DNA from: Bacteroidetes bacterium GWF2_38_335
Lineage (GTDB): Bacteria > Bacteroidota > Bacteroidia > Bacteroidales > GWF2-38-335
Assembly (NCBI GenBank): GCA_001769535.1
Contig: MEOH01000027.1
Coordinates: 32,553 to 96,552, forward strand
DNA: 64,000 nt
Direction of reading: 5' to 3'
Shown here: positions 36,847 to 64,000 of the stretch, one piece after another
Layout: the number at the start of each line of letters is the position of its first letter
Position numbering within the stretch: position 1 is the stretch's first letter
Translations under genes and position numbers: made by a program
Notes under the pieces: model-generated
The model's input: only the letters and a program-made list of their open reading frames with translations
Databases searched by the model: none
Told to the model about the DNA's origin: nothing

Positions 36847-37150
36847 AATGAGTGTGAGTGTGAAGAGTGAGTGTGGAGTGTTCTATGAAATATTGTAGTT
36901 AAACCTGAATTTACCAACTCTGAAAGAGTTGAATAACAATAGCCCCGGATGAAATCCTGGGTGAAGGATAGGCAAAGAAAGCGCCGGCCGAGAACAAGTT
37001 AAGACAACAAAACCTTGTTCCGGCGCAAATGAATGATAAATTTAGAATGAACAGTAGAATAAACAGCATAATTGCAACAGTTCTACTAACCCCGGCTTAT
37101 GAGCCGGTATCATAAGAACCCACCCCTAACCCCTCCGGGGTAGGGGAATA
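36847..37150. repeat. Mosaic hairpin/stutter repeat block inside the suf operon (sufB|sufC)
   Basis: GAGTGTGAGTGTGAAGAGTGAGTGTGGAGTG stutter directly after the sufB stop. GCGCCGG..CCGGCGC hairpin at 36981-37026 with inner GAACAAG/CTTGTTC. CCCCTAACCCCTCCGGGGTAGGGG hairpin just before sufC. Confidence 0.8.
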
Positions 37151-37161
37151 AAGAAAAAGAT

Positions 37162-37920: not shown

Positions 37921-37931
37921 AATAAAAGAAA

Positions 37932-39302: not shown

Positions 39303-39715
39303 TTGGGGGGTTATAGGTTATGGGTTATGAGTTATAAGTGATGGGTAAATGTTCTTAAATTCTGATGAGCAAACGGCCTGAAAGGCCAGGTCAATTCAGC
39401 CCGGGGCAGCGCCCCGGGAATGATTATGCAATGAAAAACCGCCGGCCGTAATCTGTTAAAAACCAAAACTCCGTTCCGGCGGAAATGAAAGGGGGAGTTT
39501 GGAGTATAGGGGTTGGGGTTAAGATTGTTGTGGAGTAAAAACTCCGAAGGAGTTGCCCAATCATAGCCCCGGATTTCAATCCGGGGTTTGAAAGATTTGA
39601 AAAACACCGCCGGCCGTAATCATTTTAGAACTAAAAATACTGTTCCGGCGGAAATGGATGAGGAGGTTTAGGGTTTGGGTTGTGGGTGATGGATTATAGG
39701 TTAGATTACGAAAAA
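39303..39715. repeat. Mosaic hairpin/stutter repeat block inside the suf operon (sufD|sufS)
   Basis: GGTTATAGGTTATGGGTTATGAGTTATAAGTGATGGG stutter after the sufD stop. Modules at 39384-39418 (shared with 43341-43375), 39434-39487 and 39601-39657 (CCGCCGG..CCGGCGG), and 39511-39588 (shared with 2306-2384). Terminal GGTTTAGGGTTTGGGTTGTGGGTGATGG stutter. ORF 39332..39607 is a repeat translation. Confidence 0.85.
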
Positions 39716-39726
39716 ATAATTAAACA

Positions 39727-40947: not shown

Positions 40948-40999
40948 TGCTTTTTGTAAAAAGCACTTTAATAATTTGCTTTTTGTAAAAACTATTTTG

Positions 41000-41007
41000 T
41001 ATATTTG
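41000..41007 (+). promoter_or_regulatory. Candidate -7 promoter box (TAnnTTTG) for the ATPase gene
   Basis: TATATTTG 20 nt upstream of ATG 41027, within three TGCTTTTT(G/A)TAAA direct repeats spanning 40948-41018. Confidence 0.4.
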
Positions 41008-41026
41008 CTTTTTAAAGACAGCAATT

Positions 41027-42208
41027 ATGGAAATTTTAATTGAGAAATCCGAAAAAAAAGCCAAATTAATATCTGGGAAAAAAAGGAGATATTTATTTGA
41101 TCAGATTGATTGGAGTCAACGGCTTATAGTAATTCTTGGCTATAGGGGCACAGGCAAAACCACACTTATATTGCAACACTTGTCAGTTATCAAAGAAAAA
41201 GGCATTTATTTGAGTATGGATGACCTTTATTTTGAAACACATCGGCTTGTTGAAACGGTCGGAAAATTATATGATTTGGGGTATAGGACTTTTCTTGTTG
41301 ATGAGGTACACAGGTATGGCTGGTGGTCGAAAGATTTAAAACAACTTTATGACGATTATGAAGACATAAAAGTCATAGCGACCGGTTCTTCGATCCTTAA
41401 TATTTCAAAAGGCAGCGCAGATCTTTCGCGCAGAGCTGCCATCTATTACCTTCATGGGTTATCTTTCAGGGAATATCTCAGTTTTCAGAAAAACATTAAT
41501 TTGCCCCCATTGAAATTGGAGGATATCTTAAACAATCATCATGTTATTGCGCCCGACTTGGTTGATTCTTTTAACTATAATAAAGATTTTCAGCATTACC
41601 TTGAATATGGGTTTTACCCATTCTTTATGGAGGCAAAACAAACCTATTATCAGAAATTGCTGGAAACAATAAATCTGGTAATTGATACAGATATTGCGCC
41701 ATTTGAGGATTTGCAGCATTCCACAACAAGGACTATGAAAAAACTTTTATATGTACTGAGTGAGTCTGTGCCGTTTACACCAAATATCAATAAACTTTCC
41801 GATAAGCTGGAAACACCGAGAAATACTATTTTGAGAATTCTTGACTTTTTGGACAAGGCACAAATAATTCAATTATTAAAAACATCTGTAAAAGGGGTCA
41901 GTTATTTGCAGAAGCCAGAAAAAGTCTATCTGCAAAACACAAATTTTGTTTACATGTTCTCGCCAAGGCAGGCCAATGTTGGCAATGTTAGGGAAACTTT
42001 TTTTTTAAATCAGCTAAACGTTGTTCATGAGGTTACCTCAGCAAGGTTCGGCGATTTCATGGTTGATGCTACCTATGCGTTTGAAGTCGGAGGACCTTCA
42101 AAAACCAATGAGCAAATTCGCGGAGTTCCAAATGCATACCTGGCTCTGCACATAGAAAGCGGGAATACAAATAGAATACCTCTGTGGCTATTTGGGATGT
42201 TGTACTAA
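41027..42208 (+). CDS. AAA-type ATP-binding protein with DUF4143-like C-terminal region
   Basis: ATG at 41027 (MEILIEKSEKK). Walker A GYRGTGKTT, Walker B TFLVDEVH. AAA_14/DUF4143-type layout. Inserted between sufS and sufE. Confidence 0.7.
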   Translation: MEILIEKSEKKAKLISGKKRRYLFDQIDWSQRLIVILGYRGTGKTTLILQHLSVIKEKGIYLSMDDLYFETHRLVETVGKLYDLGYRTFLVDEVHRYGWWSKDLKQLYDDYEDIKVIATGSSILNISKGSADLSRRAAIYYLHGLSFREYLSFQKNINLPPLKLEDILNNHHVIAPDLVDSFNYNKDFQHYLEYGFYPFFMEAKQTYYQKLLETINLVIDTDIAPFEDLQHSTTRTMKKLLYVLSESVPFTPNINKLSDKLETPRNTILRILDFLDKAQIIQLLKTSVKGVSYLQKPEKVYLQNTNFVYMFSPRQANVGNVRETFFLNQLNVVHEVTSARFGDFMVDATYAFEVGGPSKTNEQIRGVPNAYLALHIESGNTNRIPLWLFGMLY

Positions 42209-42325
42209 AGTGAAGCTAATCATCGTTAATTGATGCTCAGTAAAAGGGGAATATAAAAATCTTCTTGCGTAGAAATATGAACCTAAAGACAATCTCAAGT
42301 GTTATAATACTAAATTGGAATTCTT

Positions 42326-42333
42326 TATATTTG
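42326..42333 (+). promoter_or_regulatory. Candidate -7 promoter box (TAnnTTTG) before sufE
   Basis: TTCTTTATATTTGTTGG, with TATATTTG 50 nt upstream of ATG 42383. Confidence 0.35.
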
Positions 42334-42382
42334 TTGGTTATTTAAAAAAGAGCAAGCAACTTTCTTGCAAAAAAGAAATTAT

Positions 42383-42808
42383 ATGAACATCGAAGAAAAA
42401 CAAATTGAGATAATCGAAGAATTCAGCGCCTTCGACGACTGGATGGACAAATACGAGTACCTCATTGACCTGGGAAAAGAACTTCCTGCTATTGCCCCCG
42501 AACTGAAAACAGAGGAAAACCTCATTGAGGGCTGCCAGTCGAAGGTATGGGTAGATGCCGAACTAAAAGACGGTAAAGTATACTTCACAGCCGACAGCGA
42601 CGCCATCATCACCAAGGGAATTATTTCATTGCTGATAAAAGTACTATCTAGCCAGCCGCCAAAAGATATTTACGAAGCCGATTTATTTTTTGTGAAGCAG
42701 ATCGGACTGGATCAACATTTGTCGCCCACCCGCTCGAACGGACTCCTTTCCATGATCAAACAAATGAAAATGTATGCGCTGGCTTATCAAACAAAAATGA
42801 ACGGATGA
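42383..42808 (+). CDS. sufE: SufE-family sulfur acceptor protein
   Basis: ATG at 42383 (MNIEEKQ). EGCQSKVWV motif with the acceptor Cys, and GLLSMIKQMK. Confidence 0.88.
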   Translation: MNIEEKQIEIIEEFSAFDDWMDKYEYLIDLGKELPAIAPELKTEENLIEGCQSKVWVDAELKDGKVYFTADSDAIITKGIISLLIKVLSSQPPKDIYEADLFFVKQIGLDQHLSPTRSNGLLSMIKQMKMYALAYQTKMNG

Positions 42809-43131
42809 TGAAAACAACAGGAAAACACAAAGAGCTTGAAAATGCTATCGTTACTGTGCTTGAGCACATTTACGATCCCGAAATACCGGTGAACATTCTG
42901 GACCTCGGGCTCATTTACGAACTGAATATTGACGACGAAAAAAACGTGGAGATCGTCATGACCCTCACAGCTCCCAACTGTCCCATGGCCGAGGATCTTG
43001 TTTACGAAGTCAACGAAAAAACCAACAACATTCCCGATGTTAAAAAATCAACGGTAAAACTCGTATTCGACCCACCCTGGGATAAAAGCATGCTCAGCGA
43101 TGAGGCGTTGCTGGAGTTGGGGTTGCTTTAG
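42805..43131 (+). CDS. DUF59-type SUF system Fe-S assembly protein
   Basis: 108 aa. IYDPEIPVNILDLGLIY and MTLTAPNCPMAE. 4-nt overlap with sufE. Confidence 0.88.
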   Translation: MMKTTGKHKELENAIVTVLEHIYDPEIPVNILDLGLIYELNIDDEKNVEIVMTLTAPNCPMAEDLVYEVNEKTNNIPDVKKSTVKLVFDPPWDKSMLSDEALLELGLL

Positions 43132-51879: not shown

Positions 51880-53022
51880 ATGAAATTATTAATTGCTCTT
51901 TTTGCACTCTGCTTAACTTTTGGATTAACTGCCCAGGAAAATCACAAAGACTATTCTTTTTCGAAAATTTATGATTTAAAAACAACTCCGGTAAAAAACC
52001 AGCAAAGCTCAGGCACCTGCTGGAGTTTTGCCACGGTTTCTTTTCTGGAGACCGAAATACTGCGCACCAAAAATATTGAAATAGATTTATCGGAAATGTT
52101 TTTTGTGAGAATGGCTTATTTTACTAAAGCCGAACTTTATATCCGTTTGCACGGAAACTCAAATTTTTCTGAAGGCGGACAGGCACATGATGTTTTTAAT
52201 GTGCTCAGAAAATATGGAATGGTTACCGAAGAAACTTACAAAGGGCTTTGCTATGGCGAAGAACAGCATGTCCATTCTGAACTCGTTGATGGTTTGAAAG
52301 GATATATTTCGGGAGTTAACAAAAAGAGCAACGGTAAACTTTCCACTGCATGGACTGCCGCTGTGAACGGAATTCTGGATGCCTATTTCTGCACAGTTCC
52401 CAAAAATTTTTCATACGAAGGAAAAACCTATAAACCCACCGAATTTGTTGGTTTTTCAGGCATCAACCCCGACGATTACATCGAAATTACCTCTTACTCC
52501 AACGAACCTTTTTATAAAAAGATTATTCTCAGGATTCCTGATAACTGGTCAGGCGACCAATACTACAACGTTCCCGCCGATGACATGATGAAAATAATCG
52601 AAAATGCCCTTAAGAACGGCTATAGTGTTTGCTGGGACGGTGATGTGAGCGAAAGAAGTTTTTGTTTTTCGGCAGGTATAGCCATTATTCCGGATGATGA
52701 CTGGAGCGATATTTCAAGAGCTGAAGCAGCCAAAAAATTCGAATCATACAATAAAGAAAAGGCTGTAACGCAGGAAATGCGACAGCTTACATTTGACAAT
52801 CTGACCACCACCGACGACCATCTGATGCACATTACCGGAATGTATAAAGACGCAAAAGGAGTTTTTTACTACAAAACCAAAAACTCCTGGAGCGCCGAAA
52901 GCAACAGCCAGGGCGGGTATCTTATGATGTCAGACTCCTATGTGCGCCTGAAAACAACCGCCATCCTTATCCATAAAAAGGCAGTCCCCGAGGAACTTGC
53001 TAAGAAGATAGGAGTAAATTAA
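51880..53022 (+). CDS. C1-family cysteine peptidase (aminopeptidase C / bleomycin hydrolase-like)
   Basis: ATG at 51880 (MKLLIALFALCL signal peptide). NQQSSGTCWSFA (catalytic Cys) and DHLMHITG (His). Confidence 0.85.
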   Translation: MKLLIALFALCLTFGLTAQENHKDYSFSKIYDLKTTPVKNQQSSGTCWSFATVSFLETEILRTKNIEIDLSEMFFVRMAYFTKAELYIRLHGNSNFSEGGQAHDVFNVLRKYGMVTEETYKGLCYGEEQHVHSELVDGLKGYISGVNKKSNGKLSTAWTAAVNGILDAYFCTVPKNFSYEGKTYKPTEFVGFSGINPDDYIEITSYSNEPFYKKIILRIPDNWSGDQYYNVPADDMMKIIENALKNGYSVCWDGDVSERSFCFSAGIAIIPDDDWSDISRAEAAKKFESYNKEKAVTQEMRQLTFDNLTTTDDHLMHITGMYKDAKGVFYYKTKNSWSAESNSQGGYLMMSDSYVRLKTTAILIHKKAVPEELAKKIGVN

Positions 53023-53107: not shown

Positions 53108-56100
53108 CTACCTCATCAAAGTAACCTTCCCGGCTACTTCATGCTTGTTCTCATCCTTGTCAAAATAAATAACCAGCCAGGTGTACACATCGGTGGGTGC
53201 TTTTTTATTGCCTTTTACCCTGCCGTCCCAGCCTGTTAACTGAGGTGCAAGGGGGTCATAGTCGGTGGTTTCGTAAATCAGCTCGCCCCAACGGTCGTAT
53301 ATTCCCATGAAAAATCCATCGGTAACCATTCCGGTGCCCACCACATAAAACAGTTCATTTATTCCGTCGTTATCCGGTGTAAACGCTGTTGGTGCCCAGA
53401 AAGTAAAATAGTCATTGATAATCACATAATCTGTGACTGTATCCCTGCATCCGAATTCAGTTACTGTAACCAGGGTTACTTCGTAAGTGCCCGGCTCAAA
53501 ATATTCATGCATGGGGTTTACCAGTTCCGAAGAATCATGATCACCAAAGAACCAATAATTATAATAATTGTAAACAGAGGTGTTTTGGAAATATATTTTT
53601 GGCTCCAGAATAGTAGTAACCCAAGGATCCGGAATAAAAGAAGCTTCGGGCTCAGGATATACGGTTATCATATCTTCATAGGTCATATCTGAACTACACC
53701 CAAACTCATTGGTAACAGTTAGGGTCACATCATACACCCCTGAATTCTGATATGTATGTTGCGGATTTGGCAATTCAGATGAATTATAACTGTCAGGATC
53801 ACCAAAATCCCAGTCGAACTGAATTCCAGGATCTGCCTCAGTTATTTCAGTGAAATGAACAATGAGTGGCGGACAACCATTGACAATATCTGATACAAAT
53901 CCTACCGGTGGAGCCGGAATAATTATAAAATTTGCTCCATCGAAAACCATGGGTGTATTACATCCATCTTCCATGGTAACGCTTATTTCAGCTGATTCCT
54001 CAGGGTAGTAACTATAAGGAAATGTTATGGCTGTTGTGCCATCGAAGATAAACTCATATGGTCCGCCATTTCCTCCTGAATAAACTGCGTTTACAGTAAG
54101 CATTTCGCCCCTGCAGATTGTATCATCAGCAAGAATAATTTCCAGATGCAGGGAGTCATGCAGATTAATATCCACGCTCTCGGGTGCAGCAGTGCAGCCA
54201 TTATTGTCGGTTACTGTTACGGTATAGGTTGCTGCTGCATCCGGACTAACTTCAATATATGCCGAGGTAGTGCCAATGTTCCACTGGTAAAAATAAGGAT
54301 AGGTTCCTCCTGTTGTTGCAGCATTGACAACAACGGTATCGTCAATGCAAATGGTTATTTCATCTGGCAGAACCACAATAAGCTGTCCGGGTTCATTTAG
54401 ATAAAAACTCTCTGATTGTACGCAATTATTATTATCCGTAACTGTCAGGGTGTACATTCCTGCAAGCAATCCGCCAATATCCTGATTTGTACTTCCATTT
54501 GACCAGTGGTAAGTGTAACCCGGTGTTCCTCCTGTTACCGACGCGTCAATAGCGCCTGTTCCAACTCCAAAGCAAACCAGATCGGTAATGGATGCGGTAA
54601 TAACAATTTGGGTTGTTAAATCAAAAATTTCAATGCTTCCAATAATATTACAGTCATTGGCATCTGATACAGTAACTGTATAAACACCCGAATGCAATCC
54701 GCTCAGATCAGATGTAGTCTGTCCCGTATTCCATAAATAAGAATAAGGCGGTGTTCCTCCGGATGTAAGCTGAAGGATACTTCCGTTGCTGTATCCAAAA
54801 CAAAGAATATCAGTCCCTGTGAGTGTTGTCACAAGTGCAGCGTCGGGTGCATTAATATTAACTGTTTCGTTGATAACACATGAATTATCGTCGGTTACTG
54901 TAACGGTAAAAGTTCCTGCTGATAATCCGGTGATATCTTCGGTTACAGCTCCGGTGCTCCAGTCATACGAATACGGAGTGGTTCCTCCCGAAACGGTAAG
55001 GTCAATATTTCCGTCGGTGCCGCCAAAACAGTTTACATCAGAATAATCAAAATCGAGATTCAGCGCGTTTGGTTCGTTTATATCAACTGTATATTCATCC
55101 TGGCATCCATCGCTTCCGGTTACGGTTACGGTATAAGTACCTGCCTCAATCCCTGAAATATCCTGCAAAACGCTACCATTACTCCATGCGTAGGTAAAAG
55201 GCGCGGCGCCACCGGTAACCGTCAGATCTATTGAACCAGTTGCAAAGCCATTGCATTCGGCATCAACACTGGTAGCAGACAAAGTAAATCCCGGAATATT
55301 ATCGACAGTTACAACCTGAGTTATTATGCAGCCATTCTGGTCGGTAACCTCAACAGTATAAGGGCCTTGACAAAGATTAACCGCAGTGGCAGTATTTTGA
55401 ACCGGAGAGGTGGTCCATTCGTAAGTGTAGCCCGGACTGCCGCCCGAAACGCTGATGGATGCTTCACCAATACACTGATCGCAGAAATCGTCTTCTGAAG
55501 ATGTTGTGAAAATAATCTCATCGGGAATATCAATGGTATAGGAACCGTTGGATGGTTCGCATGATTCCATTATTGTTTCAAGAGTGATGTTGTATGAAGA
55601 TCCCGGCGTCGGGAATGTAACCTGCATTGGTCCGGGCCCGGAAATATCACCGGCAATTACAGTGCCACCACCTAAATTCCAGTTATACACCACATCGCCG
55701 GCAGCAGTACCGGTATAGGTAATCAGTGCATAACCATCGGAGCATGCGGGCGGAACAATGTTAACTGTAACCGGAGGAGTTTCACAGTAGCAATCCATAT
55801 CAAAAGGAATTGACTGGGTTGCAGCAAGGTTTCCGCAATTGTCGGCAACCGATCCCGAAGCAGAGGCATTTAATGTAAGATTATAGGTTCCGCTGAAAGT
55901 AATGGCCGGACTAAATGTAACAGTAAAAGTATTGCCAAAATCAGCTCCGGCATCACATTCAGGCGAAGACATTCCGGTAATTGTAAATGGCCCGCCCGGA
56001 CCGGTAACCTGAAAATCAGCAATTTCGACCGTTTCACAAATAACGTATTCAGAAAAATTAATGGTAATCTGGTTGCCTTCACAATCAGGTGGGTCAATAT

Positions 56101-57094
56101 CTGTCATAAAAGGATTTACATCATCAAAAATAACTGCAGTAGAAGCCCCAAAGTTGATATCATAACCATAATTTGAACCAGACCAGTTTGAAACATACAG
56201 CACATAGGTATTACCAGCCGTGACCGGAATATCAGAGTTCCACTGATTCCAGGCTCCTGTTCCGGGCCCATTGCAATTACCCGATGACGCAGCGTTGGCT
56301 GAATTGGCACCGGTCGGACCTGCATTAACCGGAGGCAGACTGCCGTCGCCTCCAGCCGTACTGGCACTTACAAGATATGCCCAGGGATTAACAAGCAAGT
56401 CGGCACATGAACCTGTTGTCAGATTGAAAACCGCCCAATCGTAATCATCATCATCATTGTGGGGATCAAGAGTGAAACGGAAAACCCCATTGGTCTGGGC
56501 CGAAAAAATATACCATAAACCATTATTTTCCTGGGGAATACAGCTGGCTGCATCAACATTTATTTCATCAAGGAAATTCCCATCACCTGAATATGCATAG
56601 GGATCAGGCTCAACATAGGTGCTTTGGCAAATAGGAATTGCTCCCAAACAATCCTGAACTGTGGCAGCAGGAGGATCAATATCACAATCAACCGTGGCAG
56701 TCCAGCCGGCAGCGCCCACAGAGCCATCAGAAATAAACTGAATGGTTATGCATGAGGTGGTTGAAACTGCATTAAAACTTGAGGTTGTCCCGGTAAAAGG
56801 ACTACCTGCAACCTGCGGGGCAGATGTGTTTGTGCCTGAATAAATATACAAATAATCGAAATTTGTTTCAAGATCAAGCATTGAAAAAACCAGCCCTATA
56901 TTTTCGGAACTACCCGAACAAAAAGTTACTGTAAAAGTCTCGGAACTATTATAATCCCCTCCGCTCCCACCGCTGTCATAAAATGTTCCCGAGCAGGTGG
57001 TAACAGTCTGACCATTATAGGAATTAATCTGATACACCTGAGCAAAAGTGCCAAGTATAGAGAATAAAAAAGCTATGGTCAGAAACCGTTTCAT
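53108..57094 (-). CDS. Giant T9SS cargo adhesin-like protein: CUB-like N-domain, SprB-type repeats, PKD domains, type B (gliding-motility CHU_C) sorting domain
   Basis: 1328 aa with a signal peptide. About 6 units of C.G..(D/N)GSI.L.V.GG..PY.Y.WS.G....DI.GL.AG.Y.VTVTD.N.C. Two PKD-like domains (FDWDFGD..., WFFGDHD...). C-terminus FTPDNDGINE...GWDGR...YTWLV...AGKVTLMR. Confidence 0.9.
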   Translation of the reverse strand: MKRFLTIAFLFSILGTFAQVYQINSYNGQTVTTCSGTFYDSGGSGGDYNSSETFTVTFCSGSSENIGLVFSMLDLETNFDYLYIYSGTNTSAPQVAGSPFTGTTSSFNAVSTTSCITIQFISDGSVGAAGWTATVDCDIDPPAATVQDCLGAIPICQSTYVEPDPYAYSGDGNFLDEINVDAASCIPQENNGLWYIFSAQTNGVFRFTLDPHNDDDDYDWAVFNLTTGSCADLLVNPWAYLVSASTAGGDGSLPPVNAGPTGANSANAASSGNCNGPGTGAWNQWNSDIPVTAGNTYVLYVSNWSGSNYGYDINFGASTAVIFDDVNPFMTDIDPPDCEGNQITINFSEYVICETVEIADFQVTGPGGPFTITGMSSPECDAGADFGNTFTVTFSPAITFSGTYNLTLNASASGSVADNCGNLAATQSIPFDMDCYCETPPVTVNIVPPACSDGYALITYTGTAAGDVVYNWNLGGGTVIAGDISGPGPMQVTFPTPGSSYNITLETIMESCEPSNGSYTIDIPDEIIFTTSSEDDFCDQCIGEASISVSGGSPGYTYEWTTSPVQNTATAVNLCQGPYTVEVTDQNGCIITQVVTVDNIPGFTLSATSVDAECNGFATGSIDLTVTGGAAPFTYAWSNGSVLQDISGIEAGTYTVTVTGSDGCQDEYTVDINEPNALNLDFDYSDVNCFGGTDGNIDLTVSGGTTPYSYDWSTGAVTEDITGLSAGTFTVTVTDDNSCVINETVNINAPDAALVTTLTGTDILCFGYSNGSILQLTSGGTPPYSYLWNTGQTTSDLSGLHSGVYTVTVSDANDCNIIGSIEIFDLTTQIVITASITDLVCFGVGTGAIDASVTGGTPGYTYHWSNGSTNQDIGGLLAGMYTLTVTDNNNCVQSESFYLNEPGQLIVVLPDEITICIDDTVVVNAATTGGTYPYFYQWNIGTTSAYIEVSPDAAATYTVTVTDNNGCTAAPESVDINLHDSLHLEIILADDTICRGEMLTVNAVYSGGNGGPYEFIFDGTTAITFPYSYYPEESAEISVTMEDGCNTPMVFDGANFIIIPAPPVGFVSDIVNGCPPLIVHFTEITEADPGIQFDWDFGDPDSYNSSELPNPQHTYQNSGVYDVTLTVTNEFGCSSDMTYEDMITVYPEPEASFIPDPWVTTILEPKIYFQNTSVYNYYNYWFFGDHDSSELVNPMHEYFEPGTYEVTLVTVTEFGCRDTVTDYVIINDYFTFWAPTAFTPDNDGINELFYVVGTGMVTDGFFMGIYDRWGELIYETTDYDPLAPQLTGWDGRVKGNKKAPTDVYTWLVIYFDKDENKHEVAGKVTLMR

Positions 57095-57149
57095 ATTACA
57101 CAGACTGTAAAAAGCACAAAAAGTTGCTTTTCAGACTTGTAAATATACA

Positions 57150-57290
57150 AAAAATAATTAGCTGATTTGCAAATGTGATGATGTGATAATGTGCAAATTC
57201 CCAAATAATAAATTTACAAGTAAATTTATTATTTGCCAATCTGCAAATCTGCTAATCAACCAATCTGCTAATCAATCAATCTGCTAAGGA
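57150..57290. repeat. Palindrome plus stutter repeats in the divergent promoter region
   Basis: 15-bp perfect inverted repeat CAAATAATAAATTTA-CAAG-TAAATTTATTATTTG at 57202-57235. GTGATGATGTGATAATGTG stutter. AATCTGC(A/T)A occurs 4 times at 57238, 57246, 57262 and 57278. Confidence 0.75.
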
Positions 57291-57380
57291 ATTTCCCTTA
57301 TTAAAAAATCTGTTATTTCATCTATTTTTTTTAACCATTCATTATCGTATTTTTACATTAAATCAAAAAAATGTTTCTAT

Positions 57381-58862
57381 ATGAAAAAATTCCTACTAAT
57401 CCTTTTTGCTGCAAGCACATTTTCGTTTGCTGCAAATTCACAGGTTACCCTGACCACTGCGGCTGACTTTACAGCTACAGATGTTAATGGCAACACAGTG
57501 AATCTTTTTTCCCTGCTTGATGCGGGCAAACATGTAGTACTCGAGTTTTGGGCCACATGGTGAGGCACCTGTCCCGGTGTCGCAACGATCACCAACGAAG
57601 CTTATACCTATTTTGGATGCAACAATGGAGATGTTGTATTTATAGGTGTCAATGTTGAACCCTCAGACGACGATGCTGCATGCATTGCATGGGATGAGAC
57701 CAACGGAGTGGAATATATTACCATCAGCGGTGTTGCTGGCGGTGATGCAATCGGAACCACTTACGGTGTTTCAGCACTCCCGACTCTTTGTCTTATTAAG
57801 CCTGATCATTCAGTTGTTCTTCAGGACATCTGGCCAATCTCTGCTGTCAGTGACATTATTACTCCCCTCGAAGGCCAGGGCTTATCAGAAACTGCTTGTT
57901 CTTCAGTATTAACAGCAAACTTTTCAGCCACTCCCACTACAATCATGGTAGGCGGTTCTGTTAATTTCAACGACGGTTCTTCGGGCACTCCAACCTCATG
58001 GTCATGGACATTTCCCGGAGGAACTCCCGGTACCTCAACCGCAGAAAACCCCACCGGAATTGTATATAATACTGCTGGAACCTATGATGTAACTCTTGAA
58101 GTTTCTGACGGCACATCCACACATTCAACTACCAAAACTGCCTATATTTTTGTATCTGAAGATGCGGTTTATTGTGATGCAGGATCAACTGGAGTTTACG
58201 AATTTATTGATGCTGTTTCATTTGGAACCATTGTAAGCACAGCCACTGGAATTGGCGCAGGAGGTTATCAGGATCATACCGACATGACAACCAACATACT
58301 TCAGGGAAATACCTATCCTATTACAATTACACTAGGAAGCGGATATGCTTCGGATCAGGGAAGGGTATGGATTGACTGGAATCAGGATGGTGACCACCTG
58401 GATGCAGATGAAATGGTTTTTGAATCTACAGTTGGCGTCGGACCATATTCAGGAAATATTACTGTTCCTGCAACGGCTACCCTTGGCGAAACAGTTATGA
58501 GAATTAGGGTATGGGACACCAGCTCAGCCGGCGCAAATAATACTCCTTGCGGAGATGCAGACTGGGGCGAAGTTGAAGATTACAATGTTGTGGTTGAATC
58601 ATCAGGCGTTTCTGTTAATGAAATGAATAGTGTTTCTTATTTAATATATCCCAATCCTGCAGAAAACGAAGTTTTTGTTAATGTTGGCAACAGCAATGTT
58701 AATAAAATTGAATTGACCGATATTACAGGAAAAGTACTTATGGTTACCGAAAAAATCAATGACCTCAATAAATTTGATCTTTCGGGAAAAGTAGCAGGAA
58801 TGTACTTCTTCCGTATTTATACTGACAGTTCAGTTAAAACTCACAAAATCATAGTGAAATAA
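57381..58862 (+). CDS. T9SS-secreted thioredoxin-fold (TlpA/redoxin-like) protein with in-frame TGA at the CxxC position: candidate selenoprotein (UxxC), paralogue A
   Basis: ORFs 57381..57563 and 57708..58862 share a frame and are separated only by TGA 57561-57563. Read-through gives VVLEFWATW-U-GTCPG. Also has a signal peptide, a PKD domain (WSWTFPGGTPGTS...YDVTLEVSDG), a GEVED domain (ADWGEVEDY) and a type A CTD (YPNPAENEVFV...GMYFFRIY...HKIIVK). Confidence 0.8.
57576..57593 (+). promoter_or_regulatory. Candidate SECIS hairpin for paralogue A
   Basis: GGTG-TC-GCAAC-GA-T-CACC. The stem starts 12 nt after the TGA, has a bulged T, and the apical loop GCAAC starts 18 nt after the TGA. Confidence 0.6.
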
Positions 58863-58879
58863 TTTGTTTCAATTAATTT

Positions 58880-58911
58880 AAAAAATCCGGACTTGCTCCG
58901 GATTTTTTTTT
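58880..58911 (+). terminator. Intrinsic terminator after paralogue A
   Basis: AAAAAATCCGGA-CTTGC-TCCGGATTTTTTTTT. Confidence 0.8.
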
Positions 58912-58930
58912 GCCGCAATTTCATTTGAAA

Positions 58931-58938
58931 TAATTTTG
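58931..58938 (+). promoter_or_regulatory. Candidate -7 promoter box (TAnnTTTG) for paralogue B
   Basis: TAATTTTG 61 nt upstream of ATG 58999. Confidence 0.3.
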
Positions 58939-58998
58939 ATCAATGTTGATTTTCTTGAAAACGTATGCTACTTTTACACCAAAGTAATCGTTTACCAA

Positions 58999-60477
58999 AT
59001 GAAAAAAATCCTGTTTATTTTTTTTTCTTTATTAACCCTGTCCTTTTCAGTAAAATCGCAGGTCACACTCACCACTGCCGCTGATTTTAATGTCACTGAT
59101 ATCAATGGAAACCCTGTCCATCTTTTTGATTATTTGGATAATGGGAAATATGTAGTCCTTGATTTTTTCGGGACTTACTGAACCTCCTGTGCAGCCATTG
59201 CAACAATGGCAAATCAGGCATACCAGTATTTTGGTTGTAATTATCACGACGTCATTTTTATTGGTGTAAATCAGGATGCTGATGACGCTGCCTGCGAAGC
59301 CTGGGATATTGAAAACGGAGTTGAATATATTACCATCAGCGGAACATCAGGTGGTGCAGATATATTTGTTGACTATGGAATATCTGCTATTCCGACCATG
59401 TGCCTGATCGCGTCCGATCATACTGTTGTTATGCAAAACATCACGCCCATTGAATCTGTTTCGGATATCATTACACCACTTGAGGCGCAAGGCATTTCAG
59501 CAAACACCTGCGATATAATTTTAATTGCTGATTTTATTGCATCCGCCAACTTCATTATGCCCGGTGAAGCAATTGATTTTACTGATTTGTCACTGAACTC
59601 ACCATCCTCATGGTCATGGTCTTTCCCGGGTGGAACACCCGAAACATCATCTGAACAAAATCCCACCGGAATACTTTACAGTAACCCGGGAACCTTTGAT
59701 GTTACCCTTGAAGTTTCGGATGGCACAAACACAAATTCATTTACTAAATTCGGATACATAGTTGTTTCAGAAGTGCCTGTTTACTGTGATGCCGGAACTG
59801 TAAGCACAATTTATGAATACATTGATGCCGTTTCTTTTAACACCATCAATAATTCAGAAACCGGGAGCGGAACAGGAGGATATCAGGATTACACAACCAT
59901 TTCAACCACAATTAATCAGGGTCATTCATATCCAATAACCATTGGTCTTGGCAACGGATACTCACAGGATAAGGCTAAAGTGTGGATTGACTGGAATCAG
60001 GATGGAGATTTGCTCGACTCAGATGAAATGGTATTTGAGTCGGAAATTGGAGACGGACCATTTACCGGAGATGTTTTCGTCCCGGCAACTTCTGTTCCGG
60101 GCAACACCAGAATGAGAATAAGGATTTGGGATACTTCATCGCCCGAGGCAAATGATACGCCTTGCGGGGATTCTGACTGGGGCGAAGTTGAAGACTATAC
60201 GGTTATTATTGATTCAACCGGAGTTTCAGCAGATGAGTTAATTAATAACAATATTATCATTTTTCCCAACCCTGTGGAAAATAAAATATTTGTCAGTATT
60301 CAGGACCAGAAGATTTACAGAATTGAACTTACGGATCTGACAGGAAAAATAATTTTTCAATCAGAAATAATTGAAAACATGAATTGTTTTGACCTTTCAG
60401 AAAATAATTCGGGTATTTATTTTTTCCGTATTTATTCTGATTATGGAATCAGCACCCATAAAATAATTGTTAAGTAA
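58999..60477 (+). CDS. T9SS-secreted thioredoxin-fold protein with in-frame TGA at the CxxC position: candidate selenoprotein (UxxC), paralogue B
   Basis: ATG at 58999 (MKKILFIFFSLL). ORFs ..59181 and 59206..60477 share a frame and are separated only by TGA 59179-59181. Read-through gives VVLDFFGTY-U-TSCAA. Same PKD + GEVED (SDWGEVEDY) + type A CTD architecture as paralogue A. Confidence 0.8.
59194..59210 (+). promoter_or_regulatory. Candidate SECIS hairpin for paralogue B
   Basis: GCCATT-GCAAC-AATGGC, a 6-bp perfect stem starting 12 nt after the TGA, with apical loop GCAAC starting 18 nt after the TGA. Confidence 0.6.
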
Positions 60478-60718
60478 TAACAAAAACAATTAAAAAATTC
60501 TGATTTAATTTATTTGATGTTTCTTGATGTTTCAAGTCTCCCGACTTGAAACATCCCAGTTCAATCTCATTCAGAAATCAGCCCATAGAATTTTCTACAG
60601 GTAAGTAATAAAACCTACAAAAAAACAATAAAATCACGCAGTTAAAATCTGTGATTGCATGGATTTTTATTTAATTCTCAATACATTATCTTTATTCCTG
60701 TAACCAAATTACATTCAT

Positions 60719-63700
60719 ATGAAAAAAACAATTCTGATTTTCTTAGGCCTTTTGTTTACATACGGCCTTTTTTCACAGACCATCGTGAGCACCACCGTGC
60801 AAAAACGAAAAGTCGTTCTCGAAGAATATACCGGAATTTATTGCACCTGGTGTCCCGAAGGACATGAGATTGCATATAATCTGGCCACTGCAAATCCGGG
60901 CAATTTTTTTGCTATCAATTATCATTATGGCGGATATGCGGCTCCCAGCGGATCTGATCCCGATTACCGAACACCCGATGGCGATATCATCGGTGGATTC
61001 TTTGGTCCGACCGGTTTCCCCATGGGTCAAATAAGCAGACATGATTTTGGTGCCGGTATTGTTACAGGCCGCGGAGACTGGACTGCCAATACCAATACGG
61101 TGAAAAACGAAGACTCTTACGTTAACGTGGGAGTAGAAGCGACATACAACAGCACTACCAAACTTCTGACCGTACACGTAGAAGCATATTATACAGGAAA
61201 CTCTCCTGCCCCAACCAACTACCTTTCTGTTGCCCTGCTGCAGAGTAATATTATTGGACCGCAAACCGGCGGATCAGGAAATCCTTATGGTTACATTAGT
61301 GCTACACAATACAGGCATGCACACATGTTCCGGGATATGATCAATCCGGTATGGGGCGATGCCATTTCCACAACTACAACAGGAACATTTGTAAACAAAT
61401 ATTATTATTACCTTGTTCCAACTTCATTTAACGGTGTGGCAGTTGTTCCTGGTGACCTTGAGATAGTTGCTATGGTACATGAAACAGAAGCTGAACTTGA
61501 ATCAGCCAACGGATGCGTTCCAACCATCACTTCGACAGTACCAACCCTTGATGCTGTACTTACCAGTGTTACTACTCCCGAAACTGTTTGCGGCGACCTC
61601 AGTCCGGTTGCTACCATCCTCAACAACGGAAGCACTACGCTTACTTCAGTAGGATTTTCATATAATGTAAACGGCGGAACTCCCCAGACATACACATGGA
61701 CAGGGTCATTAACCACAGGTCAGAGTGCCAACGTGACTCTTCCTGTAATTTCTTTTACACCTATAACAACAAACACCTGCAACGTTTCAATAACTACAGT
61801 CAACGGAGGGGCTGACGGCGTAACCACAAACAATACGGGCAACGCCTCATTTGCTGCTGCAATAACTGGTACCACCACAGTTTATCTTGAATTGATGACC
61901 GATAATTATGGTACGGAAACCACTTGGAACCTGAAAAACAGTGCAGGAACCACTCTCTATAGCGGAGGACCCTACACAAATGCACAGGTTACTTATAACC
62001 AGACATGGACACTGGCAGCAGACTGTTACACCTTTACCATCAATGACGCATATGGTGACGGCATGTGCTGCAGCTATGGAAACGGTTATTTTACCATTGA
62101 CGACTCAAACAGCACACTCCTTGGCTCAGGCGGGCAGTTTGGCTCATCAGACCAGGTGGTTTTCAGAGTGGCATCTGCCGCTCCTCCTGTTACGAATTTT
62201 ACTGCCAGCGCAACATCTGTTTGTGCAGGAAGTACCATTACATTTACTGATAACAGCACCAATTCCCCGACTTCATGGTCATGGAATTTTAACGGAGGCG
62301 CCACAAATTCAACTGTTCAGAATCCCACAGTCACTTTCAATACTCCGGGAACCTATACAATTGCCTTAACTGCTACCAACGGAGCCGGCTCAAATACAAA
62401 TACAAAAACCAATTATATAACCGTATACGCCAATCCTACTGCTTCTTCAAGTGCAGCAGCTGTTGCATGTTTTGGCGGAACAACCGGAACAGCAACCGTA
62501 ACTCCTTCTGGAGGTACTTCACCCTATACATACCTTTGGAGCAACGGCGGAACATCGGCTTCAATTACCGGACTCGCTGCCGCAACATACAATGTAACTG
62601 TTACCGATTCACATAACTGCAAAGCTTATGCAAGCTCTGTTGTTACTCAGCCAGCCACTGCAGTCAATGGATCCATTACTTCAAGTACAAACGTTTCCTG
62701 CTATGGGTTGACCAACGGTTCAGCAACTGCTGCCGGATCCGGAGGAACATCTCCTTACACTTATACATGGTCCAGTGGTGCATTAGTTGCCACTGCAACC
62801 GGACTAGCTTCCGGCACTTATACCGTTACCATCAGGGATGCAAATTTATGTACCATCACCAGAACTGTTACCATTACCCAGCCAACAGCACTCAACGCTT
62901 CGACCTCAACCACCGCTGCAAACTGCTTTGGCCAATCAAACGGAACTGCCACAGTGACAGCTTCGGGAGGTTCACCAACCTATACTTATCTGTGGACAGG
63001 CGGGGCAACTACTGCAGCTGCAACCGGACTGGCAGCTGGTACTTACACCGTGACTGTTACCGACTCACACAACTGTACCACAACAACCACTGCTACCGTT
63101 AGTCAGCCCACAGCTGTTTCCGGCTCACACACATCAACCAACGTAATCTGCAATGGCGGATCAACAGGAACAGCCTCTGTTTCAGCAACAGGCGGAACAC
63201 CTTCCTATACCTACAGCTGGAACACCGGTTCAACCAGTGCTTCAATCAGCGGACTTATTGCCGGTACCTATACAGCCACCATCACCGATACACACGGATG
63301 TACCGATACCGAATCGGTTACCATTACCCAGCCATCAGCCCTGGTAGCCTCAACAACTGTTGTGAATGTTTCCTGCTTCGGATCATGCAACGGAAGCGTT
63401 ACAGGTGGTGCAACAGGCGGTGGAGGAACATTGATTACCTATTCCTGGTCAAACGGAAGTGTTAACCCCGTAATAAGCGGACTTTGTGCCGGTACCTACA
63501 CCCTGACTGTTACCAATGACCTTGGCTGTCAGGATACCGAAACTGCAACGGTTACATCGCCAACGGCTATAGTTGTCACTCCTTCGGTGACAAACGCAAC
63601 ATGCGGAACAGCCAACGGATCGGCTACTGTTTCAGTTTCCGGCGGATCATCGCCCTATACCTACAGCTGGAGTACCGGGTCAACAACAACCGGCATCACA

Positions 63701-64000
63701 GGTGTGGTTTCAGGAACATACTATGTAACCGTAACCGACAGCCACAGCTGTCAGCAAATTCAGACAGTCAATATCTCTGATGTGGGCGGTGCAACAGTGA
63801 CCACAAACTTTACCCCGGTAAGCTGCTTCGGTGGAAGCAACGGAACTGCTTCGGTTTCAGCAACCGGTGGAACATCTCCTTACTCATACAACTGGTCAGC
63901 AGGCGGATCGGGAACTTCGGTTGCCGGACTGGCAGCAGGAACATATACCGTTACTGTAACCGACAACAGCGGTTGCGTTTCAACCCAGACTGTCACCGTT
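60719..64000 (+). CDS. Giant T9SS-type cargo protein: Omp28-related thioredoxin-like N-domain (CTWC), YGDGMCC module, PKD domain, SprB-type repeats (3' end runs off the window)
   Basis: Absent from the ORF track because it is open to the window end. I read frame 2 from ATG 60719 to 64000 without a stop. MKKTILIFLGLLFTYGLFSQ, VVLEEYTGIYCTWCPEGH, INDAYGDGMCCSYGNGYF, WSWNFNGGATNS...YTIALTATNG, then at least 8 units of C(F/Y)G..(N/T)G.A.V.A.GG..PY.Y.W..G......GL.AGTYTVTVTD...C. Confidence 0.88.
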   Translation, partial: MKKTILIFLGLLFTYGLFSQTIVSTTVQKRKVVLEEYTGIYCTWCPEGHEIAYNLATANPGNFFAINYHYGGYAAPSGSDPDYRTPDGDIIGGFFGPTGFPMGQISRHDFGAGIVTGRGDWTANTNTVKNEDSYVNVGVEATYNSTTKLLTVHVEAYYTGNSPAPTNYLSVALLQSNIIGPQTGGSGNPYGYISATQYRHAHMFRDMINPVWGDAISTTTTGTFVNKYYYYLVPTSFNGVAVVPGDLEIVAMVHETEAELESANGCVPTITSTVPTLDAVLTSVTTPETVCGDLSPVATILNNGSTTLTSVGFSYNVNGGTPQTYTWTGSLTTGQSANVTLPVISFTPITTNTCNVSITTVNGGADGVTTNNTGNASFAAAITGTTTVYLELMTDNYGTETTWNLKNSAGTTLYSGGPYTNAQVTYNQTWTLAADCYTFTINDAYGDGMCCSYGNGYFTIDDSNSTLLGSGGQFGSSDQVVFRVASAAPPVTNFTASATSVCAGSTITFTDNSTNSPTSWSWNFNGGATNSTVQNPTVTFNTPGTYTIALTATNGAGSNTNTKTNYITVYANPTASSSAAAVACFGGTTGTATVTPSGGTSPYTYLWSNGGTSASITGLAAATYNVTVTDSHNCKAYASSVVTQPATAVNGSITSSTNVSCYGLTNGSATAAGSGGTSPYTYTWSSGALVATATGLASGTYTVTIRDANLCTITRTVTITQPTALNASTSTTAANCFGQSNGTATVTASGGSPTYTYLWTGGATTAAATGLAAGTYTVTVTDSHNCTTTTTATVSQPTAVSGSHTSTNVICNGGSTGTASVSATGGTPSYTYSWNTGSTSASISGLIAGTYTATITDTHGCTDTESVTITQPSALVASTTVVNVSCFGSCNGSVTGGATGGGGTLITYSWSNGSVNPVISGLCAGTYTLTVTNDLGCQDTETATVTSPTAIVVTPSVTNATCGTANGSATVSVSGGSSPYTYSWSTGSTTTGITGVVSGTYYVTVTDSHSCQQIQTVNISDVGGATVTTNFTPVSCFGGSNGTASVSATGGTSPYSYNWSAGGSGTSVAGLAAGTYTVTVTDNSGCVSTQTVTV

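What the first reader, a model, noticed from the sequence alone, without database searches (positions are those of the whole stretch)
53108..64000. T9SS cargo island in which three consecutive genes begin with thiol-redox modules (U-x-x-C, U-x-x-C, C-T-W-C)
Seen in sequence: four adjacent genes all have signal peptides and T9SS-type architectures. They are 53108..57094 (type B CTD), 57381..58862 and 58999..60477 (type A CTD), and 60719..>64000 (SprB-type repeats, 3' end outside the window). The three plus-strand genes each start, directly after the signal peptide, with a thioredoxin-like module. Two are redoxin-like with TGA-x-x-C, and one is Omp28-related with EEYTGIYCTWCPEGH. Inference: this looks like a dedicated cell-surface redox toolkit attached to adhesin-like scaffolds (PKD, GEVED, SprB repeats), not a periplasmic Dsb/Tlp system. 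Possible roles are reduction of extracellular disulfides, peroxides or metal(loid)s.
Basis: partly seen in the sequence, partly recalled or inferred. Interest (0 to 1): 0.6.

Follow-up and report, generated by a model that had tools for sequence, protein, structure and literature searches.

The report
Secreted selenocysteine redoxins in a Bacteroidota
Two neighbouring genes encode thioredoxin-like enzymes that have selenocysteine (read from a UGA "stop" codon) in the active site and carry the tag for export to the cell surface by the Bacteroidota type IX secretion system; databases currently record them as truncated hypothetical proteins, and relatives occur in about 20 other metagenomic loci.

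Summary
Genes 57381..58862 and 58999..60477 each have one in-frame TGA at codon 61 (W-U-G-T-C and Y-U-T-S-C). It falls on the first Cys of the CxxC motif of a ResA/TlpA-like redoxin domain, which is followed by PKD, GEVED and a T9SS type A sorting domain.

Evidence that the TGA encodes selenocysteine:
- At the same position, 105 homologues have Cys and 22 have TGA.
- A hairpin 13-20 nt downstream shows compensatory changes in the Sec forms and is absent from the Cys forms.
- The same MAG (Bacteroidetes bacterium GWF2_38_335) encodes tRNA-Sec, SelA, SelB and SelD.
- In other genomes the homologue lies directly beside tRNA-Sec/selA/selB.

The third gene is a Cys-form member of the HBP35/Omp28-related family, whose Sec forms are known as "GOS_C". 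Sequence beyond the window shows that it ends in a type A sorting domain.

The "dedicated toolkit" reading is only partly supported. The trio is not syntenic in more than 120 related loci, and PKD and GEVED are ordinary cargo spacers.

The most likely function is a surface or extracellular thiol-disulfide oxidoreductase; this is inferred, not shown. UxxC redoxin selenoproteins are already known. The T9SS-cargo form appears undescribed and is misannotated, so I rate it a new variant of a known kind.

The parts
53108..57094 (-). Gene D: 1328-aa T9SS cargo (signal peptide, CUB, 5 SprB repeats, PKD, type B sorting domain). It has no redox module and is a neighbour only.
   Evidence: CHU_C 48.9 bits; TIGR04131 39.5 bits against cut-off 35
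57381..58862 (+). Gene A: 493-codon selenoprotein gene. Order of parts: signal peptide, ResA/TlpA-like redoxin (UGTC), PKD, GEVED, T9SS type A CTD.
   Evidence: GenBank annotates only the 384-aa C-terminal fragment (P0001) and a 60-aa N-terminal ORF.
57456..57818 (+). Gene A redoxin (thioredoxin-fold) domain, residues 26-146. Includes the cis-Pro loop ALPT.
   Evidence: AhpC-TSA E 7e-12; ResA 4nmu E 5e-10, alignment through twCgtC and alPT
57561..57563 (+). UGA = selenocysteine codon 61 of gene A (W-U-G-T-C).
   Evidence: aligned with Cys in 105 homologues and with TGA in 22; identical in independent assemblies
57576..57593 (+). SECIS-like hairpin of gene A: GGUG-U-CG[CAA]CG-AU-CACC, 7 pairs with a bulge, -6.9 kcal/mol. 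It begins 13 nt after the UGA.
   Evidence: Same register as gene B, L003 and L047, with compensatory changes. In isolation it competes with a hairpin at +4..+21, which a ribosome sitting on the UGA would melt (inference).
57915..58139 (+). Gene A PKD domain (residues 179-253).
58362..58589 (+). Gene A GEVED domain (residues 328-403).
   Evidence: 74 bits
58644..58859 (+). Gene A T9SS type A C-terminal sorting domain (residues 422-493).
   Evidence: TIGR04183 56.8 bits, cut-off 23
58880..58911 (+). Terminator-like hairpin after gene A (AAAAAA-TCCGGA-CTTGC-TCCGGA-TTTTTTTTT). It suggests A and B are transcribed separately.
   Evidence: read directly from the sequence; the consensus scan did not flag it
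58999..60477 (+). Gene B: 492-codon paralogue of gene A with the same architecture (UTSC). The redoxin domains are 63% identical.
59179..59181 (+). UGA = selenocysteine codon 61 of gene B (Y-U-T-S-C).
59186..59218 (+). SECIS-like hairpin of gene B: core GCCAUUG[CAA]CAAUGGC at 59194-59210 (7 pairs, -9.0 kcal/mol, pair probabilities >0.96), plus an outer CCUG/CAGG stem.
60259..60474 (+). Gene B T9SS type A sorting domain (residues 421-492).
60719..64000 (+). Gene C (5' 1094 codons of a 1547-codon gene): signal peptide, HBP35/Omp28-related thioredoxin-like module with C42-T-W-C45, PKD, SprB repeats. The rest, read from L127, holds further repeats (11 in all) and a type A CTD.
60842..60853 (+). 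CTWC motif of gene C. It is the Cys form of the UxxC site of the Omp28-related (GOS_C) selenoprotein family and aligns with C48..C51 of HBP35.
   Evidence: PMC2907840; PMC2398784

Best explanation
Genes A and B encode selenoproteins.

How the protein is made and exported:
1. Translation starts at the ATG upstream of a Sec-type signal peptide.
2. At codon 61, SelB with Sec-tRNA(Sec) reads UGA as selenocysteine, guided by a hairpin that starts about 13 nt downstream.
3. The product is a ResA/TlpA-like thioredoxin-fold domain with a W/Y-U-x-x-C active site and a cis-Pro loop, followed by PKD and GEVED spacer domains and a type A C-terminal sorting domain.
4. The protein crosses the inner membrane through SecYEG and folds in the periplasm.
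5. The type IX secretion system carries it across the outer membrane. The sorting domain is then cleaved, and the protein is either anchored to surface lipopolysaccharide or released.

Proposed activity: outside the cell the selenolate attacks disulfides and forms a transient selenenylsulfide with Cys64. Ambient low-molecular-weight thiols or sulfide in the anoxic habitat reduce it again. Selenium would give high reactivity at ambient pH and resistance to irreversible over-oxidation in a compartment that has no repair system.

Gene C is a Cys-form relative of P. gingivalis HBP35, a T9SS cargo with proven thioredoxin activity, mounted on a long SprB-repeat stalk.

What is shown here: the domain identities, the Sec/Cys pairing, the conserved hairpin, the Sec machinery in the same genome, and the sorting domains. 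What is inferred: actual Sec insertion, actual secretion, the substrate and the reductant.
For: 1. Sec/Cys pair: at the TGA position 105 homologues have TGT/TGC and 22 have TGA. Every Sec form reads through exactly one TGA at residue ~60 and continues for 256-801 aa.
2. The signal peptide lies upstream of the TGA and the sorting domain downstream, so only read-through gives a protein that makes sense.
3. A hairpin is present 13-20 nt after the UGA in three sequence subgroups, each with compensatory changes. In group I, 88% of cells are paired, 3 of 7 pairs change on both sides, 0 of 500 shuffles reach the covariation score, and slid controls reach at most 46%.
4. The region +13..+45 folds better in Sec forms than in Cys forms: mean -7.9 vs -3.9 kcal/mol, p 6.5e-8. 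The composition-controlled z-score is -2.47 vs -0.43, p 3.5e-8, with no difference further downstream.
5. The same MAG (GCA_001769705.1) has tRNA-Sec, selA, selB, Se-carrier genes and selD on contig MEPF01000006.1.
6. Physical linkage elsewhere: tRNA-Sec-selA-selB lies immediately upstream of the homologue in L084; selB is adjacent in L014, L095 and L027; tRNA-Sec lies 355 bp upstream in L123.
7. All 18 complete Sec forms and 78 of 80 Cys forms carry Por_Secre_tail.
8. ResA alignment places U on the nucleophilic Cys of WCxxC and conserves the cis-Pro loop.
9. Precedent: HBP35 is a T9SS cargo, anchored to A-LPS, whose insulin-reducing activity depends on C48/C51 (PMC2907840). Gene C's family matches it by profile (E 2.5e-11) and by fold (E 4.9e-12).
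Against: - There is no experimental evidence for Sec insertion, secretion or activity.
- The hairpin loops (CAA/GCAAC, UCACC, CCUUAUUUA) do not all show the conserved loop guanosine of the classical bacterial SECIS model.
- Gene A's hairpin is weak (-6.9 kcal/mol) and is out-competed in an isolated 60-nt fold.
- The upstream control region is also somewhat more structured in Sec forms (z -1.0 vs -0.14).
- The sequences are phylogenetically related, so the p-values overstate independence.
- No electron donor is known for a thioredoxin outside the outer membrane.
- T9SS core genes of this MAG were not examined. Only a PorK/GldK-like paralogue below cut-off lies in the window.
Confidence: 0.7

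Rival explanations
1. The TGAs are real stops. Genes A and B would be pseudogenes or split genes giving a 60-aa peptide plus an internally initiated fragment, as the current annotation has it.
For: GenBank, ENA and JGI gene calls split both genes this way.
Against: - The TGA falls exactly on the catalytic Cys in two paralogues and in about 20 further loci.
- Sequence is conserved on both sides of the TGA.
- The downstream fragment would lack a signal peptide, which makes its sorting domain useless.
- A covarying hairpin follows the UGA.
- The Sec machinery is present in the same genome and is linked to the homologue in other genomes.
Confidence: 0.03
2. The redoxin domains act in the periplasm, like TlpA/ResA/DsbE, for example on other T9SS cargo during folding. 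Export would then be secondary or a means of disposal.
For: The closest solved relatives (ResA, DsbE, DsbF) are extracytoplasmic reductants fed by CcdA/DsbD. A known electron donor exists only in the periplasm. T9SS cargo fold in the periplasm before export (established knowledge).
Against: The sorting domain is kept in 96 of 98 complete family members, which argues that export is part of the function. HBP35 is found on the cell surface (PMC2907840). No CcdA/DsbD gene recurs beside the loci.
Confidence: 0.12
3. The UxxC site does not act on disulfides. It would instead serve as a peroxidase-like scavenger of peroxides, or as a binder or reducer of soft metals and metalloids (Hg, As, Se, Cu) at the cell surface.
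For: The best Pfam hit is AhpC-TSA. UxxC/CxxU sites occur in mercury- and arsenic-handling selenoproteins (Table 1 of PMC13188914). The organism comes from Rifle aquifer groundwater.
Against: The motif and cis-Pro loop align with ResA and thioredoxin (W-C-x-x-C), and the Cys forms carry CGPC, the thioredoxin motif. I did not see the peroxiredoxin PxxxT/SxxC signature in the alignments. No metal-resistance genes lie nearby.
Confidence: 0.15
4. One reading: genes A, B and C, with D, form one co-evolved, co-regulated cell-surface redox system.
For: Four T9SS cargo genes are adjacent and three of them carry N-terminal redox modules.
Against: No synteny in >120 related loci. A terminator-like hairpin separates A from B. 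A and B are a lineage-specific duplication, since L047 and L003 have one copy each. The flanks are housekeeping genes.
Confidence: 0.12

Closest known systems
[quoted passage not shown]
   Same: Thioredoxin fold; Sec replaces the N-terminal Cys of CxxC; Sec/Cys pairs exist among homologues; a SECIS hairpin follows the UGA.
   Different: Here the domain follows a signal peptide and is fused to PKD (plus or minus GEVED) and a T9SS type A sorting domain. This predicts export beyond the outer membrane. No NCBIfam model is specific for it: the best hit is ResA at 50 bits against a cut-off of 170. No paper in the searched library links selenoproteins with T9SS.
Bacillus ResA / TlpA-family extracytoplasmic thiol-disulfide oxidoreductases (PDB 4nmu, 1st9)
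   Same: Closest solved structures by sequence (E 5e-10). The W-C-x-x-C and cis-Pro loops align. Both act outside the cytoplasm.
   Different: ResA is membrane-anchored, uses Cys, and is reduced by CcdA for cytochrome c maturation. Genes A and B use Sec, have no anchor, carry a secretion tag, and have no known reductant.
Porphyromonas gingivalis HBP35 (PG0616; PDB 5y1a)
   Same: A T9SS cargo with an N-terminal thioredoxin-like CxxC module and a type A CTD, anchored to A-LPS on the surface, with proven CxxC-dependent insulin reduction (PMC2907840). Gene C is a true homologue. Genes A and B share the design logic.
   Different: HBP35 and gene C belong to the Omp28-related family, not the ResA-like family of A and B. 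HBP35 uses Cys and binds hemin through its C-terminal part. Gene C adds PKD and 11 SprB repeats.
Omp28-related selenoprotein (NCBIfam NF045500; 'hypothetical protein GOS_C', PMC2398784)
   Same: Same family as gene C's N-terminal module. The UxxC of GOS_C corresponds to gene C's CTWC.
   Different: Gene C has Cys, not Sec, and scores 22.9 bits against a cut-off of 200, so it is a Cys-form relative and not a member of that equivalog.

Membership tests
Bacterial selenoprotein (UGA-Sec decoding) | In-frame UGA aligned with Cys in homologues, with the ORF conserved on both sides | tested here: met
Bacterial selenoprotein (UGA-Sec decoding) | SECIS hairpin shortly downstream of the UGA (apical loop about 16-37 nt away), conserved in structure | tested here: met
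   Hairpins with compensatory changes. They are enriched over Cys forms. Caveat: there is no uniformly conserved loop G, and gene A's hairpin is weak.
Bacterial selenoprotein (UGA-Sec decoding) | tRNA-Sec, SelA, SelB and SelD in the same genome | tested here: met
   GCA_001769705.1 contig MEPF01000006.1
Bacterial selenoprotein (UGA-Sec decoding) | Selenium demonstrated in the protein | not testable with these tools
   Needs 75Se labelling or mass spectrometry.
TlpA/ResA-like thioredoxin-fold oxidoreductase (Redoxin/AhpC-TSA) | Thioredoxin-fold domain with CxxC (here UxxC) and a cis-Pro loop | tested here: met
   Pfam AhpC-TSA 45.8 and 39.2 bits (cut-off 26) and Redoxin 37.7 and 28.4 bits (cut-off 26.6). 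ResA alignment. Below the NCBIfam ResA subfamily cut-off (50 vs 170 bits), so this is a superfamily member and not a ResA orthologue.
TlpA/ResA-like thioredoxin-fold oxidoreductase (Redoxin/AhpC-TSA) | Reduction by a CcdA/DsbD-type membrane electron donor | not tested
   No such gene recurs near the loci. The whole genome was not searched.
T9SS type A cargo | N-terminal Sec signal peptide | tested here: met
   By inspection: MKKFLLILFAASTFSFAANSQ and MKKILFIFFSLLTLSFSVKSQ. No predictor was available.
T9SS type A cargo | C-terminal sorting domain TIGR04183 / PF18962 | tested here: met
   Gene A 56.8 bits, gene B 47.6 bits (cut-off 23). Gene C 66.8 bits in L127. 18 of 18 Sec forms and 78 of 80 Cys forms.
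T9SS type A cargo | T9SS machinery in the genome, and secretion dependent on it | not tested
   Only indirect: many CTD proteins in the MAG and a PorK/GldK-like paralogue below cut-off.
HBP35 / Omp28-related family (gene C) | N-terminal VVLEEFTG-x-C-x-x-C-P-x-G motif followed by the Omp28 beta-sandwich | tested here: met
   Alignment. Profile vs PDB: 5y1a E 2.5e-11, 2r2c E 1.4e-11. AF2 model pLDDT 93, Foldseek 5y1a E 4.9e-12. NF033782 at 81 bits is below its cut-off of 150.
Omp28-related selenoprotein NF045500 (gene C) | Sec at the UxxC site and a score above 200 bits | tested here: not met
   Gene C has Cys (TGT/TGC) and scores 22.9 bits.

The most novel reading that the evidence does not exclude
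A set of Bacteroidota may keep the whole selenocysteine-decoding apparatus largely to supply an enzyme that works outside the cell. This would be a T9SS-exported, surface-displayed selenoenzyme recharged by environmental thiols or sulfide. It could reduce disulfide-rich substrates or keep secreted cysteine peptidases active. The gene's position directly downstream of tRNA-Sec-selA-selB in several genomes would then mark it as the principal client of the trait.
Probability: 0.25. Interest if true: 0.75.

Novelty: new variant of a known kind. Interest (0 to 1): 0.55.

Why it matters
Bacterial selenoproteins are known mainly from the cytoplasm and periplasm. A family that carries a type IX secretion tag would place a selenolate catalyst on the cell surface or in the medium of common anaerobic Bacteroidota from groundwater, digesters and sediments.

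This matters in three ways:
- It raises a concrete, testable question: what reduces a thioredoxin-like enzyme outside the outer membrane, and why is selenium preferred there?
- It has a practical side. These genes are systematically mis-called in public databases, either as a 60-aa ORF plus a truncated "PKD domain-containing protein" or with TGA translated as Trp. Selenoproteome and T9SS cargo censuses therefore both miss them.
- It gives HBP35, a virulence-associated surface thioredoxin, a much wider family context. That context includes Sec forms.

Tried and rejected
- Rfam (gathering thresholds) and ARAGORN on the window found nothing. The Sec tRNA lies on another contig.
- The whole-window scan for further TGA-interrupted ORFs gave only antisense or intergenic artefacts besides genes A and B.
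- A search for selA/selB in the window found none.
- A search for gene C-like, gene D-like or second redoxin copies beside homologues found none, except that a peptidase C1 gene also neighbours the L123 homologue.
- Clustering of neighbouring genes across all loci found only lineage-level synteny among rumen Bacteroidales Cys forms and nothing shared by the Sec loci.
- The promoter/terminator consensus scan was uninformative.
- Global TGA reassignment (code 4 or 25) was considered and rejected.
- A single common SECIS alignment for all Sec forms was not attempted, because the hairpins of the three subgroups sit in different registers.
Full report
**What is in the sequence.** The region holds four adjacent genes.
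- Gene D (53108..57094, minus strand, 1328 aa) has a signal peptide, CUB, five SprB repeats, PKD and a type B sorting domain.
- Gene A (57381..58862) and gene B (58999..60477) are paralogues. Each is open across exactly one TGA at codon 61 (57561-57563 and 59179-59181).
- With that codon read through, both A and B match AhpC-TSA/Redoxin/Thioredoxin at residues 26-146, then PKD, GEVED and Por_Secre_tail/TIGR04183.
- Gene C (60719..>64000) starts with a signal peptide and the motif EEYTGIYCTWCPEGH, followed by an Omp28 match, PKD and SprB repeats.

**Source organism and reproducibility.** The window comes from the groundwater MAG "Bacteroidetes bacterium GWF2_38_335" (GCA_001769705.1). Its annotation records gene A as a 384-aa hypothetical protein that begins after the TGA (P0001). 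Gene callers also list the 60-aa N-terminal pieces as separate genes. The 63-nt stretches around both TGAs are identical in six further independent assemblies from different samples. TGA ends 6 of the 37 long ORFs in the window, so it is a normal stop in this genome. No other gene in the window shows a plausible internal TGA.

**Is the TGA selenocysteine?** Scans of metagenome and genome collections with the redoxin domain returned 124 loci.
- At the aligned position, 105 homologues have TGT or TGC, 22 have TGA, 16 have Asp and 1 has Asn. The Asp cases are a degenerate second domain.
- One database protein (P0004) shows Trp there only because its caller read TGA as Trp. Its DNA has TGA.
- Every Sec form has a signal peptide, a single TGA at residue 59-73, and a further 200-740 codons that end in a sorting-domain-like tail.
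- The signal peptide lies upstream of the TGA and the sorting domain downstream. Termination at the TGA would therefore leave a tagged fragment with no way to reach the periplasm.

**The hairpin downstream of the UGA.** A hairpin follows the UGA in nearly all Sec forms. Three sequence subgroups can be told apart:
- Group I: CGUU[9 nt]AACG with an outer AGC/GCU stem.
- Group II: UAUCG[CAA]CGAUA. This group contains both window genes, L003 and L047.
- Group III: CAUCY[UCACC]RGAUG.

Each subgroup shows compensatory double substitutions, which in coding sequence require coordinated amino-acid changes. For group I, 88% of cells pair, 3 of 7 pairs change on both sides, none of 500 shuffles reaches the observed covariation, and sliding the partners drops pairing to 46% or less.

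The stretch +13..+45 is markedly more stable in Sec forms than in Cys forms. The means are -7.9 and -3.9 kcal/mol. The composition-controlled z-scores are -2.47 and -0.43 (p 3.5e-8), with no difference further downstream.

Caveats:
- The upstream control differs weakly in the same direction.
- The sequences are related, so they are not independent observations.
- The loops lack a uniformly conserved guanosine.
- Gene A's hairpin (57576-57593, -6.9 kcal/mol) is weaker than gene B's (59194-59210, -9.0 kcal/mol).

**Selenocysteine machinery.** The window holds no tRNA and no sel genes. Using SelA from a related locus as the query, I found SelA of this same MAG (P0245). Its contig carries tRNA-Sec, selA, selB, a class V aminotransferase, TusA/DsrE, a Se/S-carrier protein and a Cys-form selD.

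In other genomes the redoxin gene is physically linked to the machinery:
- L084 has tRNA-Sec, selA, selB and then the Sec-redoxin in direct succession.
- selB is adjacent in L014, L095 and L027.
- tRNA-Sec lies 355 bp upstream in L123.

Taken together, I put the selenoprotein reading above 0.9.

**What kind of protein it is.**
- The closest solved structures by sequence are ResA thiol-disulfide oxidoreductases (E 5e-10). The alignment puts U on the nucleophilic first Cys of W-C-x-x-C and conserves the cis-Pro loop.
- Cys-form relatives mostly carry CGPC or CGTC.
- All 18 complete Sec forms and 78 of 80 Cys forms carry the T9SS type A sorting domain. 17 of 18 Sec forms but only 1 of 80 Cys forms also carry PKD.
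- In a rough neighbour-joining tree the Sec forms fall into two blocks, which correspond to the hairpin subgroups (I plus II, and III with L123 and L115). Window A is nearer to L047 than to window B.
- Two further Cys residues are conserved across the family: FGCN, and one at the end of the domain. I infer a structural disulfide, as expected for an exported protein.

**Gene C.**
- Its N-terminal module belongs to the Omp28-related family, with a strongly conserved VVLEEFTGxxCxxCPxGH motif.
- A profile of this family matches P. gingivalis HBP35 (5y1a, E 2.5e-11, aligned through the CxxCP motif) and Omp28 (2r2c).
- An AlphaFold model (pLDDT 93) finds 5y1a as its best structural match.
- HBP35 is a T9SS cargo anchored to A-LPS, and its insulin-reducing activity requires C48 and C51 (PMC2907840).
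- NCBIfam also has an "Omp28-related selenoprotein" model (NF045500). The 2026 review equates it with "hypothetical protein GOS_C", a Trx-like UxxC family from ocean metagenomes (PMC13188914, PMC2398784). Gene C is a Cys-form relative and scores far below that model's cut-off.
- Sequence beyond the window (L127) shows gene C to be 1547 aa, with 11 SprB repeats and a type A sorting domain.

**Is it a "toolkit"?** I found no support for a conserved system.
- None of the related loci has a gene C-like or gene D-like neighbour or a second redoxin copy.
- Neighbour clustering shows nothing shared by the Sec loci apart from the sel genes.
- The closest homologue sits among PBP1, RadA, TopA and arginase genes.
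- A terminator-like hairpin separates A from B.
- The rest of the window is housekeeping: the SUF operon, MetRS, LysRS, LpxA/C, Mfd and O-antigen genes.

The adjacency of three redox-headed cargo genes is real, but on present evidence it is specific to this lineage.

**Most likely mechanism.**
1. SelB-dependent insertion of Sec at codon 61.
2. Sec-dependent export across the inner membrane.
3. T9SS transport across the outer membrane.
4. CTD removal, with surface anchoring or release.
5. Thiol-disulfide exchange by the selenolate, with a selenenylsulfide to Cys64 as the intermediate, and recharging by ambient thiols or sulfide.

Steps 1 to 4 rest on strong sequence signatures and on established knowledge of these pathways. 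The catalytic step and the reductant are inference, from ResA and thioredoxin homology and from the HBP35 precedent. The rivals (periplasmic action, peroxide or metal chemistry, pseudogene) are listed separately with their tests.

**Novelty.** UxxC selenoproteins of the TlpA/Redoxin type have been catalogued since 2004-2005 (PMC1088965; Table 1 of PMC13188914). The chemistry is therefore a known kind. What I could not find described is a selenoprotein with a T9SS sorting domain.
- No paper in the library joins the two topics in substance. The only co-occurrence is an unrelated rabbit-nutrition paper.
- The 2026 review mentions neither T9SS nor Bacteroidota.
- No NCBIfam model is specific for the family.
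- Public annotations truncate it.

I rate it a new variant of a known kind, of moderate interest.

Noticed in passing
L001 806-3211 (protein P0004): A public protein record carries Trp where the DNA has the Sec-TGA, because the gene caller used a TGA=Trp code on this short contig. This kind of silent mistranslation hides selenoproteins.
   Followed up: yes
L051, L052, L059-L063, L067, L073, L075-L078, L081, L090 (e.g. L051 10001-11524): In rumen Bacteroidales the Cys-form protein is a tandem in a single ~507-aa ORF: a CxxC redoxin domain, then a second degenerate redoxin-like domain with Asp in place of the first Cys (DxxS), then the sorting domain.
   Followed up: partly
Sec-form loci vs Cys-form loci (alignments A5, A6): 17 of 18 Sec forms but only 1 of 80 Cys forms carry a PKD domain between the redoxin and the sorting domain. 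Whether this is only phylogenetic is not resolved.
   Followed up: no
window 57246-57287: A 16-nt tandem repeat (AATCTGCTAATCAACC, 2.6 copies, 96% matches) lies in the 286-bp intergenic region between the divergent genes D and A. It could be a regulatory site.
   Followed up: no
window 51880-53022 and L123 8270-9505: A signal-peptide-bearing papain-family (C1) peptidase gene lies close to the Sec-redoxin both in the window and in L123 (35% identity). This may hint at a link with cysteine peptidases, or it may be coincidence.
   Followed up: no
window 35398-43131: A SUF Fe-S assembly operon (sufB, sufC, sufD, sufS, sufE, FeS_assembly_P) has an AAA_14 ATPase ORF (40910-42208) inserted between sufS and sufE.
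   Followed up: no
window 5362-6411 (-): An FGE-sulfatase-fold protein matches the T9SS ring lipoprotein PorK/GldK at 195 bits, below the 350-bit cut-off. It is a paralogue rather than the core component.
   Followed up: no
L133 8243-17723 (same MAG, contig MEPF01000006.1): The selenium gene cluster runs tRNA-Sec, a 452-aa ORF on the opposite strand with no Pfam hit, selA, selB, class V aminotransferase, TusA/DsrE, Se/S carrier, Fic, selD (Cys form), and then a HEPN/nucleotidyltransferase pair.
   Followed up: partly
L127 16783-20932 (downstream of gene C, beyond the window): Four consecutive ORFs (152, 611, 276 and 192 aa) have no Pfam match. They lie between gene C and a Proton_antipo_M gene.
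   Followed up: no
one search hit list (e.g. P0153, P0157, P0162, P0171): Several Omp28-related hits cover only ~80% of the query. In the alignment these turned out to be complete at the N-terminus and short at the C-terminus, and P0157, P0162 and P0171 end in sequence that no longer aligns with the family. The cause was not examined.
   Followed up: partly
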